The position numbers were made by a program, and so were the translations under genes. A DNA stretch of 43,839 bases from a virus (lineage: Duplodnaviria; Heunggongvirae; Uroviricota; Caudoviricetes): the IMG/VR virus record IMGVR_UViG_2734482537_000014. One strand, 5' to 3'. Under the pieces are notes generated by a model. That model worked only from the letters and a program-made list of their open reading frames with translations. It was not told the DNA's origin and searched no databases. Below are positions 1,553 to 22,281 of this stretch, one piece after another. Position 1 is the stretch's first letter. Each line of letters opens with the position of its first letter.

Positions 1553-1741
1553 TCACGAGGACTGAAGTTTCTCGCAATTAAAATTTATCAGTTTTACTTT
1601 CTGCTCTCTGGAAACGCCTGCTTCTTTTTTACCTGAGAGCATTTTTTCGCATTCTGATTTCGTTAGTTTAGATTTTGAATATCTTGTCCAGTTAGTAGGA
1701 GTGCCACCTTCCTTTTCAATAGTGGCGGTAATTTTATACAT
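1553..1741 (-). CDS. ydaC: YdaC-like small protein (Rac early-left region)
   Basis: ORF 1553..1813 minus; preferred start is ATG at 1739-1741 (MYKITATIEKEGG...) preceded by GGAGG with about 5-nt spacing; this ATG overlaps the TAA that closes the ralR frame. Longer starts up to 1813 are possible. Confidence 0.6.
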   Translation of the reverse strand: MYKITATIEKEGGTPTNWTRYSKSKLTKSECEKMLSGKKEAGVSREQKVKLINFNCEKLQSS

Positions 1742-16308: not shown

Positions 16309-16598
16309 TGGTGAATTTACGTAAAGCGGCTAAAGGCCAGATGTGCCAGATCAGAATCCCTGGCTACTGCAATCACAATCCCGAAACCTCTGTGCTGGCG
16401 CATTACAGGCTGGCGGGGACGTGCGGAACAGCGACAAAACCACATGATATGCAGGCGGCGATAGCCTGTAGCTCATGCCACGATCTAATCGACGGGCGGG
16501 TAAAAACCAGCGATTACACCAAAGAAGAATTGCGCCTGATGCATGCTGAAGGGGTTTTTCGCACACAAGAAATCTGGAGAAAGAAAGGTCATTTATGA
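16308..16598 (+). CDS. YbcO-like (DUF1364) Cys/His-rich putative nuclease, 96 aa
   Basis: ORF 16308..16598 plus; MVNLRKAAKGQMCQIRIPGYCNHNPETSVLAHYRLAG...CSSCHD resembles DLP12 YbcO as recalled. Confidence 0.6.
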   Translation: MVNLRKAAKGQMCQIRIPGYCNHNPETSVLAHYRLAGTCGTATKPHDMQAAIACSSCHDLIDGRVKTSDYTKEELRLMHAEGVFRTQEIWRKKGHL

Positions 16599-17137
16599 TT
16601 TACCCAACGAATACAGGAAAAAGCGGAGAACACCTTCGCCTCACCACGCTGGAAAGTGTCTGGATTCAGGGAAAACTACGTATGTGGGGGCGCTGGTCGT
16701 ATATTGGCGGTGGCAGGTCAGGGAATATGTTCAATCAGTTGTTGGCATCCAAAAAACTGACGAAAACAGCCATTAATGAAGCCCTGCGCAGAATGAAAAA
16801 AGCGGGAATAGAGAAAGCTGAGCTGGAAGCGTTTTTGCGAGAGATGATCAACGGCAAGCAAAAGAGCTGGCTGGCGCATTGTACTGATGCAGAGGCGTTA
16901 TGTATTGATCGAGTCATAAGTGAGGTGCTGGCAGAGCATCCAGGATTGATTTGCATTCTCCGGCAACGCTATGAAGGGCGGGGGATGACTAAGCGCAAAA
17001 TGGCTGAATTGCTAAATGATGCACACCCAGAGTGGTGTTTTAGCACATGCGAAAAACGGATTGCTAATTGGTTAGCTGTTGCTGAGTATGCCCTATATAT
17101 TCCCATGCGTGAATCATTTGCTGAGAAAATGGCTTGA
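16595..17137 (+). CDS. Late-gene antiterminator Q candidate (possibly Q21-type), 180 aa
   Basis: ORF 16595..17137 plus; last gene before a strong intrinsic terminator and the lysis region; assigned by position, not by a confident motif. Confidence 0.5.
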   Translation: MIYPTNTGKSGEHLRLTTLESVWIQGKLRMWGRWSYIGGGRSGNMFNQLLASKKLTKTAINEALRRMKKAGIEKAELEAFLREMINGKQKSWLAHCTDAEALCIDRVISEVLAEHPGLICILRQRYEGRGMTKRKMAELLNDAHPEWCFSTCEKRIANWLAVAEYALYIPMRESFAEKMA

Positions 17138-17247: not shown

Positions 17248-17562
17248 TCAGGAAAGCAGGGGAGAATGCTGCTAGTTGGGCAACTGGTCTTTCTGCTCCA
17301 AATTATAACAGAGACCAGTTATAGTTTCGGTGCTGTGTTTTTTTTACAATATTGTGATAACACATTGCTGGCGGGAGTTTTGATATTTCTTGGCAGGGGC
17401 TGATGATGCGTTATCCTGATGTCGTCAACTCATATAAAATGAGATGAGAGATCATTGCAGGGTGGTTTGTAATTCGCTGTTTAGCGGGACAATATGTTGT
17501 CTGATACAAGACACCCGACGCCTCAGATTACTATAATAAAGACGAAGCATCCTTTGTATTGA

Positions 17563-17590
17563 CCAACCGCCTGTTTAGGCGGTTCTTTTT
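17563..17590 (+). terminator. Second intrinsic terminator candidate
   Basis: AACCGCC-tgtttag-GGCGGTT followed by CTTTTT. Confidence 0.4.
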
Positions 17591-18181
17591 GGGCTGGTTT
17601 ATTGTATGCCAAATGATTATTAAAAAGGTTGTGTTAATAACAAGATCCGAAATAATATGCCTGCATATTTTTATCTTGCTTATATTCTGCATATTGTGCA
17701 TAGCAGGCTCATCCCTGCAATCAAAACTGTATGATGAGTATTTTTTGTTTTCCTTTTTTCCAGTCATCTGATGATGACCTGCTTCTTTTTAATCCGGATC
17801 GACATCAGTTTTTTAAGATAATTCCTGCGAGTTATATGCATAAATGCCACAAACTCCGCATTTTATGTGGTTGGGAGTTGCCGGGCGCGCAGTGAGTTTG
17901 CTAAGAAAACTCCTGCATGGTGAATCCCCCTGTGCGGTGGGGTGATACCATTAACCTTTTCTGTCGCCGACAGGTATCACGAACATTTTGTTCACCGGGA
18001 GGCACCCGGCACCATGCACTTCAATAGATTCTCTCCACATTATGGATATTCTTTCAGAATATCCCACGCAGACTTTGTGTAAATGTTAACAAATGTGCGT
18101 TTTATTTGATCTGATTCGCTGTTTGAGCGTCCAAAACAACGGTATATATAATCCTTTACTATATGACATATGTGAGGAAAA

Positions 18182-18610
18182 ATGGGTTTTCGTAGCGCAT
18201 CAATTCTTACGTTGATTATTAGTGGGATTATTATCGGGTGCACTGATGCTGTATCGACAAATTATCATGACCGTACATCATATTACTCCGATAAAGCAAT
18301 AGAGACACAGTATGTGAGTTCATCTGAACGTACTTCTGATGTTAGTGAGGATATCCGTCTGTATGCCCATCAAATCAAGAGCGCCATCGAAAAACAGTTC
18401 GGGGATGCGAGTAAGTATTCAGGAAAAGAGTGTACACTGAGAATGCATATGGCCCCGAATGGCCTTCTACTGGAGGTTAAAAGAGAAAGTGGAGACCTCG
18501 ATTTATGTCGTGAAGCGATGAATGCGATAAAGAATGCTGATATACCTGCCCCCCCTTCGCCGGAAGTATATAAAGTATTTCAAAATGGGGTGCTGGATTT
18601 TAAACCCTGA
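18182..18610 (+). CDS. Lipoprotein with TolA C-terminal (domain III)-like region, 142 aa
   Basis: ORF 18182..18610 plus, GAGGAAAA Shine-Dalgarno; hydrophobic leader ending in lipobox IIGC; C-terminal ...YAHQIKSAIEKQFGDASKYSGKECTLRMHMAPNGLLLEVKRESGDLDLCREAMNAIKNADIPAPPSPEVYKVFQNGVLDFKP resembles the E. coli TolA C-terminus as recalled. Confidence 0.6.
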   Translation: MGFRSASILTLIISGIIIGCTDAVSTNYHDRTSYYSDKAIETQYVSSSERTSDVSEDIRLYAHQIKSAIEKQFGDASKYSGKECTLRMHMAPNGLLLEVKRESGDLDLCREAMNAIKNADIPAPPSPEVYKVFQNGVLDFKP

Positions 18611-18760
18611 TATTTATTGTTTTGTAATAAACGGTTTCGGCTTAGGTTTGTTCTGACACAGCTACGGCACTGAGCTAAATTTAGCGGATAGTCAGCTCTG
18701 AGCCAGTGGCGGACGTAACAACTACTATTGCTGAGATTTTAATGGATTGAGGAGCAAGAA

Positions 18761-19156
18761 GTGGGATTAAAGAAAATCGTTATGTTGACTTTTTGGGTCG
18801 GTTTTGTTGCGGGATGCACACCTTTACACCCTTCAGATTGCCACAAAACTACTGCTACAGGTAGTTGCAGTTCAGGACGCTGGGATGATCAGGATGAATG
18901 GGGGGCGCAAGCGCGGGGAATCAGAGCTGCAATTAATGCCAAACTTGATGAGCCGCATAACTGGAAAGGGAAAAAATGCAGGTTGCATATGGAATTCTCT
19001 CAGGATGGCACGGCGTTAAAAATATCTACCAGTAACGGTGATAAAGCCTATTGCGAAGCGATAAAGTCCGCAGCTCATAAAGCCAAATTTCCGGCCTTCA
19101 ACAATCCGGAAGTCTACAGAGATTTTCAGAAATCTGGCTTTGACATGCGAGGTTAG
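18761..19156 (+). CDS. Paralogous lipoprotein, TolA C-terminal-like, 131 aa
   Basis: ORF 18761..19156 plus, GTG start after GAGGAG; lipobox VAGC; shares the C-x-L-x-M...G-x-L...GD...C-x-A...A...PEVY-x-x-FQ pattern with the upstream gene. Confidence 0.6.
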   Translation: MGLKKIVMLTFWVGFVAGCTPLHPSDCHKTTATGSCSSGRWDDQDEWGAQARGIRAAINAKLDEPHNWKGKKCRLHMEFSQDGTALKISTSNGDKAYCEAIKSAAHKAKFPAFNNPEVYRDFQKSGFDMRG

Positions 19157-19281: not shown

Positions 19282-19305
19282 AGCTCGCTACGGCGAGCTT
19301 TTTAT
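19282..19305 (+). terminator. Intrinsic terminator upstream of the holin gene
   Basis: AGCTCGC-tacg-GCGAGCT followed by TTTTTAT. Confidence 0.45.
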
Positions 19306-19407: not shown

Positions 19408-19623
19408 ATGAAATCCATGGACAAAATTTCAACAGGCATTGCCTACGGCACCTCCGCAGGCAGTGCTGGCTACTGGTTTTTACAGTTGCTCGATAGAGTA
19501 ACTCCGTCACAGTGGGCTGCAATCGGTGTGCTGGGTAGTCTGGTATTTGGCCTGCTGACGTACCTGACAAACCTTTATTTCAAGATTAAAGAAGATAAGC
19601 GCAAGGCTGCGAGAGGTGAATAA
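19408..19623 (+). CDS. Holin, phage 21 S-like pinholin, with dual-start motif MKSM
   Basis: ORF 19351..19623 plus; ATG 19408 after GGAGGTGAGG; [24 protein letters not shown]...[13 protein letters not shown] with two hydrophobic segments and a charged C-terminus; second in-frame ATG at codon 4. Confidence 0.8.
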
Positions 19624-20120: not shown

Positions 20121-20686
20121 GCAGAGTCACCGCGATTATCTCCGCTCTGGTTATCTGCATCATCGTCTGCCTGTCATGGGCTGTTAATCATTACCGTGAT
20201 AACGCCATTACCTACAAAGCCCAGCGCGACAAAAATGCCAGAGAACTGAAGCTGGCGAACGCGGCAATTACTGACATGCAGATGCGTCAGCGTGATGTTN
20301 NNNNNNNNNNNNNNNNNNNNNNNNNNNNNNNNNNNNNNNNNNNNNNNNNNNNNNNNNNNNNNNNNNNNNNNNNNNNNNNNNNNNNNNNNNNNCAGCGTGA
20401 TGTTAATGCACTCGATGCTAAATACACGAAGGAGTTAGCTGATGCGAAAGCTGAAAATGATGCTCTGCGTGATGATGTTGCCGCTGGTCGTCGTCGGTTG
20501 CACATCAAAGCAGTCTGTCAGTCAGTGCGTGAAGCCACCACCGCCTCCGGCGTGGATAATGCAGCCTCCCCCCGACTGGCAGACACCGCTGAACGGGATT
20601 ATTTCACCCTCCGGGAACGACTGGTAATGATGCAGGCCCAACTTGAAGGTGCTCAGCAATACATAACCGAGCAGTGTTTAAAGTAA
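20117..20686 (+). CDS. Rz i-spanin, interrupted by a 93-N in-frame gap
   Basis: ORF 20105..20686 plus; [61 protein letters not shown] [gap] [28 protein letters not shown]... resembles lambda Rz as recalled; embedded Rz1 in the +1 frame. Confidence 0.7.
20300..20392. other. Run of 93 N (assembly gap or masked sequence) flanked by identical 12-mers
   Basis: Ns at 20300-20392; CAGCGTGATGTT at 20288-20299 and again at 20393-20404; 93 is a multiple of 3, so the Rz frame is preserved. Confidence 0.9.
20442..20627 (+). CDS. Rz1 o-spanin lipoprotein, 61 aa, embedded in Rz
   Basis: ORF 20442..20627 plus; [52 protein letters not shown] with lipobox VVGC and proline-rich body. Confidence 0.75.
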   Translation: MRKLKMMLCVMMLPLVVVGCTSKQSVSQCVKPPPPPAWIMQPPPDWQTPLNGIISPSGNDW

Positions 20687-20823
20687 AATCTTAACTACAA
20701 TATGATTCATTTTGATGATTGTTTCATAAGGAACAGTGAAGTAAGATCTAAGAGGAGTTAAATTTTATACAGTATAATCATAATATTGCAGCAAGGTGGT
20801 TATAATTGAAAGAATATTTAGAT

Positions 20824-22281
20824 ATGAATACATCTCATGTAAGAGTTGTTACTCATATGTGTGGGTTCCTGGTTTGGCTCTATAGTCTTTCAATGTTGCC
20901 ACCAATGGTTGTAGCATTGTTTTATAAAGAAAAAAGCCTGTTCGTTTTCTTTATAACTTTCGTTATATTTTTTTGCATTGGTGGCGGAGCGTGGTATACA
21001 ACTAAGAAATCTGGCATTCAATTACGTACCCGTGATGGGTTTATTATAATTGTAATGTTTTGGATTTTGTTTTCTGTTATTAGTGCATTCCCTTTATGGA
21101 TTGACTCAGAACTTAATTTAACGTTCATTGATGCTCTGTTTGAAGGGGTTTCTGGAATAACAACAACAGGAGCAACTGTAATTGATGATGTTAGTTCATT
21201 ACCTCGGGCATATTTGTACTATCGGTCACAGTTAAATTTTATAGGTGGTTTAGGAGTTATTGTTCTGGCGGTTGCAGTATTGCCATTATTGGGTATTGGT
21301 GGTGCAAAGCTTTATCAGTCAGAAATGCCGGGGCCATTTAAGGATGACAAACTCACTCCCCGCCTGGCCGATACGTCACGGACACTGTGGATAACTTATT
21401 CTTTATTAGGTATTGCTTGTATTGTCTGTTATAGACTTGCAGGAATGCCTTTGTTTGATGCTATTTGTCACGGGATTTCCACAGTTTCGCTTGGTGGTTT
21501 CTCAACTCATAGCGAGAGTATCGGATATTTTAATAACTATTTGGTTGAGCTGGTGGCTGGTTCTTTTTCCCTGCTATCGGCTTTCAACTTCACTCTTTGG
21601 TATATTGTTATTAGCAGAAAAACGATAAAACCTTTAATCAGAGATATTGAACTTCGTTTCTTTCTGTTAATAGCCTTAGGGGTGATCATTGTTACCTCTT
21701 TCCAGGTCTGGCATATAGGTATGTATGACTTGCATGGAAGTTTTATTCATTCGTTTTTTCTTGCCAGCTCCATGCTCACTGATAATGGTTTAGCTACGCA
21801 GGATTATGCAAACTGGCCCACGCACACGATAGTGTTTTTGCTGTTGTCAAGTTTCTTTGGGGGATGTATAGGTTCAACCTGTGGTGGAATTAAGTCACTT
21901 CGATTTCTTATACTTTTCAAACAAAGCAAACACGAGATAAATCAGCTTTCTCATCCCAGAGCGTTGTTGAGTGTAAATGTAGGAGGGAAGATAGTTACAG
22001 ATCGTGTAATGAGGTCTGTATGGAGTTTCTTTTTTCTTTATACTCTCTTCACGGTGTTTTTTATACTGGTGTTAAATGGTATGGGATATGATTTTCTTAC
22101 ATCATTTGCAACAGTGGCTGCATGTATTAATAATATGGGATTAGGTTTTGGGGCTACTGCATCGTCATTCGGAGTGCTTAATGACATTGCAAAATATTTA
22201 ATGTGCATAGCTATGATTCTTGGTCGCCTTGAAATTTATCCTGTTATTATATTGTTTTCAGGTTTTTTTTGGCGCTCCTAA
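20824..22281 (+). CDS. trkG: TrkG potassium uptake protein (Trk system membrane subunit), 485 aa
   Basis: ORF 20806..22281 plus (TTG in track); ATG at 20824 gives MNTSHVRVVTHMCGFLVWLYSLSMLPPMVVALFYKEKSLF...; polytopic membrane protein; AT-rich relative to phage genes; known Rac cargo gene. Confidence 0.85.
   Translation: MNTSHVRVVTHMCGFLVWLYSLSMLPPMVVALFYKEKSLFVFFITFVIFFCIGGGAWYTTKKSGIQLRTRDGFIIIVMFWILFSVISAFPLWIDSELNLTFIDALFEGVSGITTTGATVIDDVSSLPRAYLYYRSQLNFIGGLGVIVLAVAVLPLLGIGGAKLYQSEMPGPFKDDKLTPRLADTSRTLWITYSLLGIACIVCYRLAGMPLFDAICHGISTVSLGGFSTHSESIGYFNNYLVELVAGSFSLLSAFNFTLWYIVISRKTIKPLIRDIELRFFLLIALGVIIVTSFQVWHIGMYDLHGSFIHSFFLASSMLTDNGLATQDYANWPTHTIVFLLLSSFFGGCIGSTCGGIKSLRFLILFKQSKHEINQLSHPRALLSVNVGGKIVTDRVMRSVWSFFFLYTLFTVFFILVLNGMGYDFLTSFATVAACINNMGLGFGATASSFGVLNDIAKYLMCIAMILGRLEIYPVIILFSGFFWRS

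What the first reader, a model, noticed from the sequence alone, without database searches (positions are those of the whole stretch)
18182..19156. Two tandem paralogous lipoproteins with TolA domain-III-like sequence in the Q-to-holin moron slot
Both ORFs have a lipoprotein leader (lipoboxes IIGC and VAGC) followed by about 90 residues that match my recollection of the E. coli TolA C-terminus, including the terminal PEVYKVFQNGVLDFKP. TolA domain III is the contact point for TolB/Pal and the co-receptor for filamentous phage g3p and several group A colicins. A membrane-anchored periplasmic copy could act as a decoy for superinfection exclusion or colicin tolerance, or could perturb Tol-Pal during lysis. 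The genes occupy the same late-transcribed slot that carries stx or bor in other lambdoid phages, and each is preceded by AT-rich sequence.
Basis: partly seen in the sequence, partly recalled or inferred. Interest (0 to 1): 0.7.

Follow-up and report, generated by a model that had tools for sequence, protein, structure and literature searches.

The report
Prophage lipoproteins copying TolA's tip
A Rac-type E. coli prophage carries, just before its lysis genes, two small outer-membrane-type lipoproteins that copy the tip domain of host TolA, the domain used by colicins and filamentous phages to enter the cell; they are common, uncharacterised, and may act as decoys.

Summary
ORF1 (18182-18610) and ORF2 (18761-19156) each have a lipoprotein signal peptide, a disordered linker and a complete TolA domain III. 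Evidence: Pfam TolA_C E=2e-23 and 1e-14; 60% and 34% identity to E. coli TolA 334-421; AlphaFold models within 0.6-1.1 Å of solved TolA-III.

They lie between a Q-like antiterminator and a P21-type holin in an intact Rac prophage.

- The pair is not a tandem duplication. The ORFs share only about 30% identity.
- ORF1-type genes occur alone in other lambdoid prophages, at the stx position.
- ORF2-type genes occur on pO157, on I-complex plasmids and as chromosomal singletons in many Enterobacterales.
- bor does not sit in this slot.

Both families are under purifying selection (dN/dS 0.07-0.24). ORF1-type is in 16.5% and ORF2-type in 23% of complete E. coli genomes. Pipelines label them "TolA" or a tolA pseudogene. 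I found no functional study.

ORF1 keeps the β3 edge (LDFKP) that binds g3p, colicin N and TolB.

Best explanation, inferred and untested: motor-less decoys giving tolerance to Tol-dependent colicins and filamentous phages. Tol-Pal interference is the main rival.

The parts
16595..17137 (+). DUF1133 protein, the likely Q-type late antiterminator upstream of the slot
   Evidence: Pfam DUF1133 356 bits. It also hits Phage_antitermQ at 26.1 bits against a cutoff of 26.
17885..18071 (+). STnc100-family RNA element, 111 nt upstream of ORF1
   Evidence: Rfam RF02076, 86.6 bits (gathering score 47), full-length match. In another prophage (L212) copies of this element flank the ORF1 variant on both sides.
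18123..18152 (+). Sigma-70-like promoter candidate for ORF1 (TTGAGC-18 nt-TATAAT) in 32% GC DNA
   Evidence: 10 of 12 consensus matches; GC content. This is a consensus match only and activity is untested.
18182..18610 (+). ORF1, a 142-aa lipoprotein. Signal peptide aa 1-19, lipid-modified Cys20 (18239-18241), Thr at +2, disordered linker aa 21-54, TolA-III domain aa 55-142 (18344-18607). RBS GAGG at 18174-18177.
18549..18555 (+). C7 homopolymer inside ORF1. Database variants frameshifted here lose the β3 strand.
   Evidence: the run; P0130 and P0135 switch to the +1 frame at this point.
18761..19156 (+). ORF2, a 131-aa lipoprotein. GTG start with GAGGAG RBS at 18749-18754, Cys19 (18815-18817), Thr at +2. 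Conserved Cys-containing linker (CTPLHPSDCHKTTATGSCSSGRWDDQDEWG). TolA-III domain aa 44-131 (18890-19153).
19282..19304 (+). Intrinsic terminator (AGCTCGC-TACG-GCGAGCT followed by a T run) between ORF2 and the holin. It closes a promoter-genes-terminator moron unit.
19408..19623 (+). P21-type holin S (essD), the first lysis gene. It marks the right edge of the slot.
   Evidence: Pfam Phage_holin_2_1, 120.9 bits; PGAP annotation.

Best explanation
What it is (shown): two independent cargo genes ('morons') in the late region of an intact Rac prophage. They lie between the Q-like antiterminator and the holin. Each encodes a small lipoprotein: signal peptide with lipobox, a flexible linker of about 25-35 residues, and a complete disulfide-containing copy of TolA domain III. 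Neither has TolA's membrane anchor (domain I) or its long helical domain II.

How it most likely works (inferred):
1. [quoted passage not shown] There the TolA-III head hangs into the periplasm, but it is not connected to the TolQR motor.
2. Incoming ligands that must capture the real TolA-III would meet these copies first. Such ligands include the N1 domain of filamentous-phage g3p, the translocation domains of colicins N, A and K, and the TolB N-terminus that nuclease E-colicins exploit.
3. The ligands would bind by the same β-strand addition, and import would stall because no force is transmitted.
4. The result would be tolerance of the lysogen or plasmid host to Tol-dependent bacteriocins and Ff/If1-type phages.

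ORF1 mimics E. coli TolA closely on both binding edges. ORF2 keeps only the β3 edge, in conservative form, so the two probably cover different ligand sets. Expression would come from a local promoter in lysogens and, at much higher level, from the Q-dependent late transcript after induction.
For: Architecture and fold.

Lipoprotein features:
- The lipobox Cys is invariant in 18 of 18 family members.
- Thr or Ser at +2 is conserved in the ORF1 family.
- Both TolA disulfide cysteines are retained.

Binding residues:
- ORF1 keeps β3 L-D-F-K-P and Y340, I344, I348. D418P and K420P abolish g3p-N1, ColN and TolB binding; I344D and I348D give full ColN resistance and Y340A partial resistance (PMC4339652).
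- ORF1's colicin A edge is LLEVKR versus LLDIKP, with two of three cation-pi lysines kept (PMC3365938).
- The Asp equivalent to D418 is invariant across both families.

The genes are functional, not decaying:
- dN/dS is 0.07-0.14 in the ORF2 family.
- dN/dS is 0.09-0.24 in the ORF1 domain and 0.47-0.78 in its signal peptide plus linker.
- dS against host tolA is saturated, so this is not a recent fragment capture.

The benefit looks self-contained and host-level:
- ORF2-type genes are single-gene inserts in unrelated chromosomal contexts in Enterobacter, Serratia, Citrobacter and Klebsiella.
- They are found in 33 species' genomes, nearly all Enterobacterales.
- They are also on pO157 and on I-complex plasmids next to nikB.

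Moron anatomy: promoter-like site and terminator, and presence/absence among related prophages.

Precedent, from my own knowledge: Levengood-Freyermuth, Click & Webster, J Bacteriol 1993. Free TolA-III exported to the periplasm made wild-type cells tolerant to colicins E1, E2, E3 and A, and also leaky. The paper is not held in the library.

Converse precedent: periplasmic g3p-N1 sequesters TolA and gives phage and colicin A resistance (PMC10424213).
Against: - No binding, localisation, expression or phenotype data exist, and I found no paper on these proteins.
- The same precedent shows that free TolA-III also makes cells leaky, so a decoy carries a cost and the selected effect could be the leakiness itself.
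- The position directly upstream of the holin in the late operon means the highest expression comes when the cell is about to lyse. Protection from invaders matters little at that stage.
- ORF2 has lost all three colicin A lysines and Y340, and it carries a highly conserved linker motif. That hints at a partner that is not a TolA ligand.
- The promoter is only a consensus match.
- OM sorting is inferred from the +2 rule alone.
- No hit in PADLOC.
Confidence: 0.45

Rival explanations
1. Tol-Pal interference is the selected function. The outer-membrane-tethered TolA-III heads bind the N-terminus of TolB, which is itself held at the outer membrane through Pal. They out-compete energised TolA and produce a partial tol phenotype: a weakened, vesiculating, leaky outer membrane. 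For the phage this would help outer-membrane disruption and progeny release at lysis, or trigger vesicle shedding. Colicin or phage tolerance would be a side effect.
For: - The genes sit immediately upstream of holin, endolysin and spanin in the Q-dependent late operon.
- In other prophages ORF1-type genes occupy the stx position, which is expressed massively on induction.
- ORF1's β3 TolB-binding edge is identical to TolA's.
- TolA D418P and K420P mutants that lose TolB binding are leaky (PMC4339652).
- Free periplasmic TolA-III causes leakage (Levengood-Freyermuth 1993, own knowledge).
- The Tol-Pal review notes that modulating TolB interactions could regulate vesicle production (PMC7391070).
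Against: - ORF2-type genes are kept under strong purifying selection (dN/dS about 0.1) as chromosomal singletons and on plasmids with no lysis genes nearby. A constitutive envelope defect there would be costly.
- The phage already encodes a complete spanin pair (Rz, and Rz1 at 20442-20627).
- A local promoter-like site and a terminator suggest expression independent of lysis.
Confidence: 0.2
2. The TolA-III fold has been re-used for a different partner. One or both proteins, especially ORF2, no longer act through TolA's known ligands. They would bind another envelope component, such as a porin, peptidoglycan, CpoB, or a conjugation or secretion component, through diverged surfaces and the conserved linker. 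The function could be envelope stabilisation or some role in plasmid or host physiology.
For: - ORF2 is only 34% identical to TolA-III, with the colicin A edge and Y340 replaced.
- Its mature N-terminus (C-x-PLHPS-x-CHKTTATGSCSSGRWDDQDEWG, with two extra cysteines) is almost invariant across genera. A mere tether would not be expected to be so conserved.
- Its genomic contexts are heterogeneous.
- A search of 1.84 billion representatives found many short TolA-III proteins: 84 of the top 150 are 175 aa or less, and 48 of those carry a lipobox. This is an old and diverse stand-alone family, not just a recent mimic.
Against: - The β3 edge stays conservative in ORF2 (F-D-M-R) and the D418 equivalent is invariant.
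- ORF1 is an unusually faithful copy of E. coli TolA-III on both ligand edges.
- No alternative partner is suggested by gene neighbourhood.
Confidence: 0.25
3. These are non-functional remnants: fragments of a tolA gene picked up by the phage, as some PGAP annotations imply ('tolA, incomplete, missing N-terminus').
For: PGAP marks ORF1 as a partial tolA pseudogene in strain ECCHD184. Frameshifted copies at the C7 run exist in databases.
Against: - Both have their own start codon, RBS and lipoprotein signal peptide, none of which is part of tolA.
- Reading frames are intact in hundreds of genomes.
- dN/dS is 0.07-0.24 with substantial dS.
- Synonymous divergence from host tolA is saturated.
- Models are confident, with both disulfide cysteines retained.
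Confidence: 0.02

Closest known systems
E. coli TolA domain III (residues about 334-421; PDB 1TOL, 2X9A, 3QDP/3QDR, 1S62)
   Same: Same fold: three helices, a three-stranded sheet and one disulfide. ORF1 is 60% and ORF2 34% identical. ORF1 keeps the β3 strand used by g3p-N1, colicin N and TolB, and most of the β2 edge used by colicin A.
   Different: There is no domain I (the TolQR-coupled transmembrane helix) and no helical domain II. Instead there is a lipoprotein signal peptide and a short disordered linker. The genes are on a prophage or plasmid, not in the tol-pal operon. The head is therefore probably tethered to the opposite membrane and is uncoupled from the proton-motive force.
Engineered periplasmic TolA-III (Levengood-Freyermuth, Click & Webster 1993; cited from memory, paper not held)
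   Same: A free TolA-III domain in the periplasm of a tolA+ cell. Reported effects were tolerance to colicins E1, E2, E3 and A, plus periplasmic leakage. This is the phenotype predicted here.
   Different: That was an artificial, overexpressed, soluble construct. The proteins here are natural, lipid-anchored, diverged, selected genes on mobile elements.
g3p (pIII)-mediated exclusion by filamentous phages
   Same: It targets the same protein-protein interface (g3p-N1 with TolA-III) to block Tol-dependent entry. Periplasmic N1 gives phage and colicin A resistance (PMC10424213).
   Different: The logic is the mirror image. There the invader's ligand sequesters the host receptor. Here a copy of the receptor would sequester the invader's ligand.
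Phage superinfection-exclusion lipoproteins Cor (phi80/N15) and Llp (T5)
   Same: Small phage-encoded lipoproteins of the outer membrane's inner leaflet that block entry of other phages and colicins (Llp: bioRxiv 10.64898/2026.03.26.714494, listed; Cor from own knowledge).
   Different: They plug the outer-membrane receptor FhuA and have no homology to a host protein. The proteins here copy a periplasmic co-receptor, and no relation to Cor or Llp was tested.
Late-region morons of lambdoid phages (stx in the Q-S slot)
   Same: Cargo inserted between Q and the holin, with presence/absence among related phages and a promoter-like site plus terminator of its own. In L209 an ORF1 variant sits between the tRNA genes and nanS-p, where Stx phages carry stx.

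Membership tests
TolA, the Tol-Pal system protein (NCBIfam NF007065 / TIGR02794 equivalogs) | Full-length match to the equivalog model at or above its curated cutoff | tested here: not met
   NF007065: ORF1 107.8 bits and ORF2 53.7 bits against a cutoff of 213. TIGR02794: ORF1 scores 75.6, above the 59.45 cutoff, but matches only model positions 265-362 of 362; ORF2 scores 47.2, below the cutoff. This partial hit explains PGAP's 'TolA' name.
TolA, the Tol-Pal system protein | N-terminal transmembrane domain I and long Ala/Lys/Glu-rich helical domain II | tested here: not met
   The proteins are 142 and 131 aa. Residues ahead of the TolA-III domain are a lipoprotein signal peptide and a low-confidence linker.
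TolA, the Tol-Pal system protein | Encoded in the ybgC-tolQRA-tolB-pal-cpoB cluster | tested here: not met
   Located in a Rac prophage between the Q-like gene and the holin. The K-12 tol-pal locus was fetched for comparison.
Pfam TolA_C (PF06519) domain family | Domain match above the gathering score, and the TolA-III fold | tested here: met
   82.6 and 54.6 bits against a cutoff of 25. Foldseek top hits are E. coli TolA-III, TM 0.85-0.94.
Pfam TolA_C (PF06519) domain family | Conserved intradomain disulfide pair (E. coli C363 and C388) | tested here: met
   Both cysteines are aligned and invariant in both families.
Bacterial lipoproteins (Lgt/LspA/Lnt pathway) | Positively charged n-region, hydrophobic h-region, lipobox with an invariant Cys | tested here: met
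   ORF1 begins MGFRSASILTLIISGIIIG|C and ORF2 begins MGLKKIVMLTFWVGFVAG|C. The Cys is invariant in 18 of 18 aligned members.
Bacterial lipoproteins (Lgt/LspA/Lnt pathway) | Actual lipidation and outer-membrane localisation | not testable with these tools
   Only the +2 rule applies: Thr at +2, no Asp, which predicts Lol-dependent sorting to the outer membrane (established knowledge).
Phage moron | Cargo between conserved phage genes, variably present among related phages | tested here: met
   ORF1-type occurs with or without ORF2 and behind two different Q types. Only 1 of 50,697 GenBank phage records carries either gene.
Phage moron | Own promoter and terminator, allowing expression from the repressed prophage | tested here: inconclusive
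   A promoter-like site at 18123-18152 (10 of 12) and a strong terminator at 19282-19299 were found. No transcription data are available.
Superinfection-exclusion or colicin-tolerance determinant | Reduces entry of a defined phage or bacteriocin when expressed | not testable with these tools
   No experimental data found. No PADLOC model matches. PHROG 5772 is listed as 'unknown function'.

The most novel reading that the evidence does not exclude
Stand-alone, lipid-anchored copies of TolA domain III form a widespread, unrecognised class of periplasmic 'receptor-decoy' defence genes in Enterobacterales. They would be carried by prophages (in the stx slot), virulence and resistance plasmids (pO157, I-complex) and chromosomal islets. 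They would neutralise Tol-dependent colicins and filamentous phages by offering a motor-less copy of the co-receptor. Different family members (ORF1-type, ORF2-type and dozens of other short lipoproteins) would be tuned to different invaders.
Probability: 0.35. Interest if true: 0.8.

Novelty: new variant of a known kind. Interest (0 to 1): 0.62.

Why it matters
Tol-dependent colicins and filamentous phages are major agents of competition among gut Enterobacteriaceae. Known resistance comes from receptor loss or from tol mutations that cripple the envelope.

A mobile gene that gives tolerance by supplying a decoy of the periplasmic co-receptor would be a new defence principle, and one that leaves the essential host system intact. 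It would help explain how lysogens and plasmid hosts survive bacteriocin warfare. It would assign a function to a gene on pO157, on I-complex resistance plasmids and in about a sixth to a quarter of E. coli genomes.

It would also give Tol-Pal researchers natural, evolved competitors of the TolA-TolB interaction.

On the practical side, these genes are currently mis-annotated as 'TolA' or as tolA pseudogenes. They could also blunt colicin-based or M13-based antibacterial strategies.

Tried and rejected
- **Literature.** Nine full-text searches used TolA with prophage, lipoprotein, exclusion, colicin, moron, IncI1/nikB and pO157, plus the RefSeq accessions. Seven of them looked for work on these proteins and found none. 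The other two were for background on TolA-III ligands and the 1993 precedent.
  - Hits in PMC6854850 only list 'TolA protein, hypothetical protein' as a 1,355-bp strain-specific phage segment.
  - The TolA remark in PMC11125564 refers to a gene annotated as tail fibre and could not be tied to these ORFs.
- **The key precedent.** Levengood-Freyermuth 1993 could not be retrieved. It is cited from memory.
- **Other phages.** I looked for the fold or genes elsewhere in phages. One GenBank phage record carries them, mEp460_ev081. No BFVD viral structure matches at E<=0.001.
- **Defence databases.** PADLOC gives nothing.
- **Recent capture from host tolA.** Rejected, because synonymous sites are saturated.
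- **Tandem duplication.** Rejected. The ORFs share 30% identity, nucleotide homology with other prophages stops at ORF1's stop codon, and ORF2's nearest relatives are on plasmids.
- **ORF2 as a core IncI1 backbone gene.** Rejected. In pESBL, nikB is followed directly by trbC.
- **Complex prediction.** Modelling with g3p, colicin or TolB peptides was not possible with the tools and caps available.
Full report
**1. Observation**

The window encodes two adjacent + strand ORFs at the stated coordinates.
- ORF1 is 18182-18610, 142 aa. It begins MGFRSASILTLIISGIIIGC and ends PPSPEVYKVFQNGVLDFKP.
- ORF2 is 18761-19156, 131 aa from a GTG preceded by GAGGAG. It begins MGLKKIVMLTFWVGFVAGC.
- PGAP starts ORF2 at ATG 18782, which removes the charged n-region. 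The plasmid orthologue has ATG at the position of the GTG, so 18761 is the better start.

Both match Pfam TolA_C well above its cutoff of 25 bits: 82.6 bits, E=2.4e-23, and 54.6 bits, E=1.3e-14. Both match solved E. coli TolA-III chains, at E about 5e-28 and 5e-9.

Pairwise identity:

| Pair | Identity |
|---|---|
| ORF1 vs K-12 TolA 334-421 | 60% (52/86) |
| ORF2 vs K-12 TolA | 34% (26/77) |
| ORF1 vs ORF2 | about 30% |

AlphaFold models are confident for the domain (pLDDT about 90) and low (<50) for residues 1-52 of ORF1 and 1-41 of ORF2. They superpose on TolA-III as follows:
- ORF1: TM 0.94, rmsd 0.6 Å on 2X9A chain B.
- ORF2: TM 0.92, rmsd 1.1 Å on 3QDP.

**2. Context**

The window is an intact Rac prophage. 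It carries intR, xisR, ralR, recET, kilR and sieB on one side and lysis genes, trkG and terminase on the other.
- Upstream of the pair is a DUF1133 protein that also reaches the Phage_antitermQ threshold. Downstream are a P21-type holin and a lysozyme.
- Between them lies about 1 kb without long ORFs. It contains an STnc100-family RNA element at 17885-18071 (86.6 bits).
- A sigma-70-like promoter candidate (TTGAGC-18-TATAAT, 18123-18152) sits in 32% GC DNA just before ORF1.
- A strong intrinsic terminator at 19282-19299 separates ORF2 from the holin.

This is the classical moron layout. Its mention of bor is not, because bor lies after the lysis genes in lambda (own knowledge). Only ORF1 is preceded by AT-rich DNA.

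**3. Two genes with two histories**

*ORF1-type genes.*
- They are confined to E. coli and Shigella.
- They occur in 898 of 5,426 complete E. coli genomes, and 959 of 962 places are chromosomal.
- Variants at 91% and 66% identity sit alone, without ORF2, in other lambdoid prophages behind either a PF03589 Q or DUF1133.
- In L209 the order is Q, TfpB, AraC, tRNAs, ORF1 variant, NanS-p, DUF1378, DUF826, holin. That is the place where Stx phages carry stx.
- Nucleotide homology between these prophages and the window ends at ORF1's stop codon.
- In L212 the ORF1 variant is flanked by STnc100 copies.

*ORF2-type genes.*
- They are in 1,269 of 5,426 genomes, at 826 chromosomal and 536 plasmid places.
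- At about 87% identity they lie directly downstream of the nikA-nikB relaxase genes on IncI1/B/O and K/Z plasmids.
- They also lie on pO157 between psiA/hok and toxB.
- A canonical IncI1 plasmid lacks the gene, so it is cargo there too.
- Relatives at 63-89% identity, plus a few at 47-53%, occur as single-gene inserts in unrelated chromosomal neighbourhoods. The genera include Enterobacter, Serratia, Citrobacter, Klebsiella, Raoultella, Leclercia, Pantoea, Kluyvera and Rouxiella.

The pair is therefore not a tandem duplication. It is two independent acquisitions that happen to be adjacent in Rac-type prophages.

*Rarity in free phages.* Only one of 50,697 GenBank phage records carries either gene. 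No BFVD viral structure has this fold at E<=0.001.

**4. A wider family**

A search of 1.84 billion cluster representatives with ORF1 gave 333 hits. Among the best 150, 84 are 175 aa or shorter, and 48 of those have a lipobox after a hydrophobic stretch. Several others have ordinary signal peptides. Named members, from Serratia and Kosakonia, are auto-annotated as 'TolA' or 'colicin import membrane protein'.

Stand-alone exported TolA-III proteins therefore form a sizeable, uncharacterised family.

**5. The genes are functional**

Pairwise Nei-Gojobori estimates:

| Comparison | dN/dS | Note |
|---|---|---|
| ORF2 family | 0.07-0.14 | dS 0.5-1.1 |
| ORF1 TolA-III part | 0.09-0.24 | |
| ORF1 signal peptide plus linker | 0.47-0.78 | |
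| ORF1 vs host tolA | not meaningful | synonymous sites saturated |

- The lipid-modified Cys and both disulfide cysteines are invariant.
- The reading implied by some PGAP records, 'tolA, incomplete, missing N-terminus', is wrong.
- Neither protein is TolA. Domains I and II are absent and the NF007065 equivalog cutoff is missed. TIGR02794 is passed by ORF1 only, through a partial C-terminal match, which explains the misleading name.

**6. Ligand surfaces**

Published work defines two binding edges on E. coli TolA-III.
- **β3 (L417, D418, K420), with helix residues Y340, I344 and I348.** g3p-N1, colicin N and the TolB N-terminus add a β-strand here. D418P and K420P abolish all three interactions and make cells leaky (PMC4339652; PMC7391070).
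- **β2 (375-LLDIKP-380), with K368, K379 and K396.** This edge is used by colicin A (PMC3365938).

How the two ORFs compare:

| Site | ORF1 | ORF2 |
|---|---|---|
| β3 (LDFKP in TolA) | LDFKP, identical | F-D-M-R-G, conservative |
| Y340 / I344 / I348 | all kept | Y340 becomes Gln; both Ile kept |
| β2 (LLDIKP in TolA) | LLEVKR | ALKIST |
| K368 / K379 / K396 | two of three kept | all three lost |

The Asp equivalent to D418 is invariant in both families.

ORF2 also has an almost invariant mature N-terminus with two extra cysteines, CxPLHPSxCHKTTATGSCSSGRWDDQDEWG.

**7. Mechanism**

*Shown.* These are exported, lipobox-bearing, folded TolA-III heads without any connection to TolQR. They are encoded as conserved cargo on mobile elements.

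*Inferred.*
- Thr at +2 predicts sorting to the outer membrane's inner leaflet.
- The 25-35-residue linker would let the head reach the zone where colicin translocation domains and g3p emerge, and where TolB-Pal resides.
- There it would compete with the energised TolA.

The experimental precedent is soluble TolA-III exported to the periplasm. It gave tolerance to colicins E1, E2, E3 and A, and it also caused leakage (Levengood-Freyermuth et al. 1993, from memory; not retrievable). The mirror experiment is periplasmic g3p-N1, which gives phage and colicin A resistance (PMC10424213).

I favour a decoy or tolerance function (0.45). ORF2-type genes persist under strong selection on plasmids and in chromosomes far from any lysis genes, and the cassette has its own promoter-like site and terminator.

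The rivals are:
- **Deliberate Tol-Pal interference to weaken the outer membrane at lysis (0.2).** It is favoured by the late-operon position and disfavoured by the non-phage distribution and by the presence of a full spanin pair.
- **A re-purposed fold with a different partner, mainly for ORF2 (0.25).**
- **Pseudogene fragments (0.02).**

Decoy and interference are not exclusive.

**8. Novelty**

The domain and the gene calls are in the databases: Pfam, PHROG 5772 'unknown function' and PGAP names. I found no functional description in 8 million full texts, and there is no PADLOC model.

A natural, mobile, lipid-anchored copy of a periplasmic co-receptor is a new variant of a known kind. It is common: ORF1-type is in 16.5% and ORF2-type in 23% of complete E. 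coli genomes, and ORF2-type is on pO157 and I-complex plasmids. The hypothesis can be tested directly with standard colicin and phage assays.

Noticed in passing
window 17885-18071 (+); L212 6704-6877, 7599-7803, 7854-8061; L002 5891-6081: A full-length match to Rfam STnc100 (RF02076) lies 111 nt upstream of ORF1. In another prophage, three copies of the element bracket the ORF1 variant. A 37-nt core (window 17991-18026) also recurs in phage Evi. These repeated elements may be the recombination joints at which late-region morons are swapped, or part of the late leader RNA.
   Followed up: partly
window 18549-18555: There is a C7 homopolymer inside ORF1. Database proteins P0130-P0137 are frameshifted at or near this run and replace the β3 strand with an unrelated tail. 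This could be sequencing error or slipped-strand on/off switching.
   Followed up: partly
L003 5995-6426; L004 3079-3510; L219 5995-6426: ORF2 homologues (about 87% identity) sit directly after the nikB relaxase gene on IncI1/B/O and K/Z plasmids, and between psiA/hok and toxB on pO157. I-pilus-specific filamentous phage If1 uses TolA-III as co-receptor (PDB 2X9A), so a plasmid-borne decoy against pilus-specific phages is conceivable.
   Followed up: partly
L013 20451-20711 (equivalent to window 18350-18610): PGAP annotation of ORF1 is inconsistent. It is an intact 'tolA: cell envelope integrity protein TolA' in SE11, but a partial tolA pseudogene ('missing N-terminus') in ECCHD184, for identical DNA.
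   Followed up: yes
window 20300-20392: A run of 93 N (masked sequence) lies inside the Rz spanin gene. The translated flanks repeat the motif QRDV on both sides.
   Followed up: no
window 20442-20627 (+): An embedded Rz1-type o-spanin ORF (lipobox VVGC, proline-rich) lies within Rz. The late operon therefore encodes three predicted outer-membrane lipoproteins in a row.
   Followed up: no
window 1557-1735 (+): The RalA antitoxin sRNA (RF02694, 225 bits) of the RalR/RalA type I toxin-antitoxin system. It confirms the Rac identity of the prophage.
   Followed up: no
window 17508-17594 (+): A promoter-like site (AAGACA-18-TATAAT) is followed 28 nt later by a strong terminator (AACCGCC-TGTT-TAGGCGGTT plus a T run). 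This could be the late promoter with its terminator. The segment 17509-17804 is 83% conserved in prophages that carry a different Q gene.
   Followed up: no
L009/L010 6957-8736: In Serratia marcescens the ORF2 homologue lies next to a GmrSD_N plus HEPN gene pair, a defence-island-like neighbourhood.
   Followed up: no
window about 20806-22281 (+): trkG, a potassium transporter gene, sits as cargo directly after the lysis cassette, as in K-12 Rac. K-12 Rac lacks the Q-to-lysozyme segment that holds the two TolA-III genes (own knowledge of the K-12 map; not checked here).
   Followed up: no
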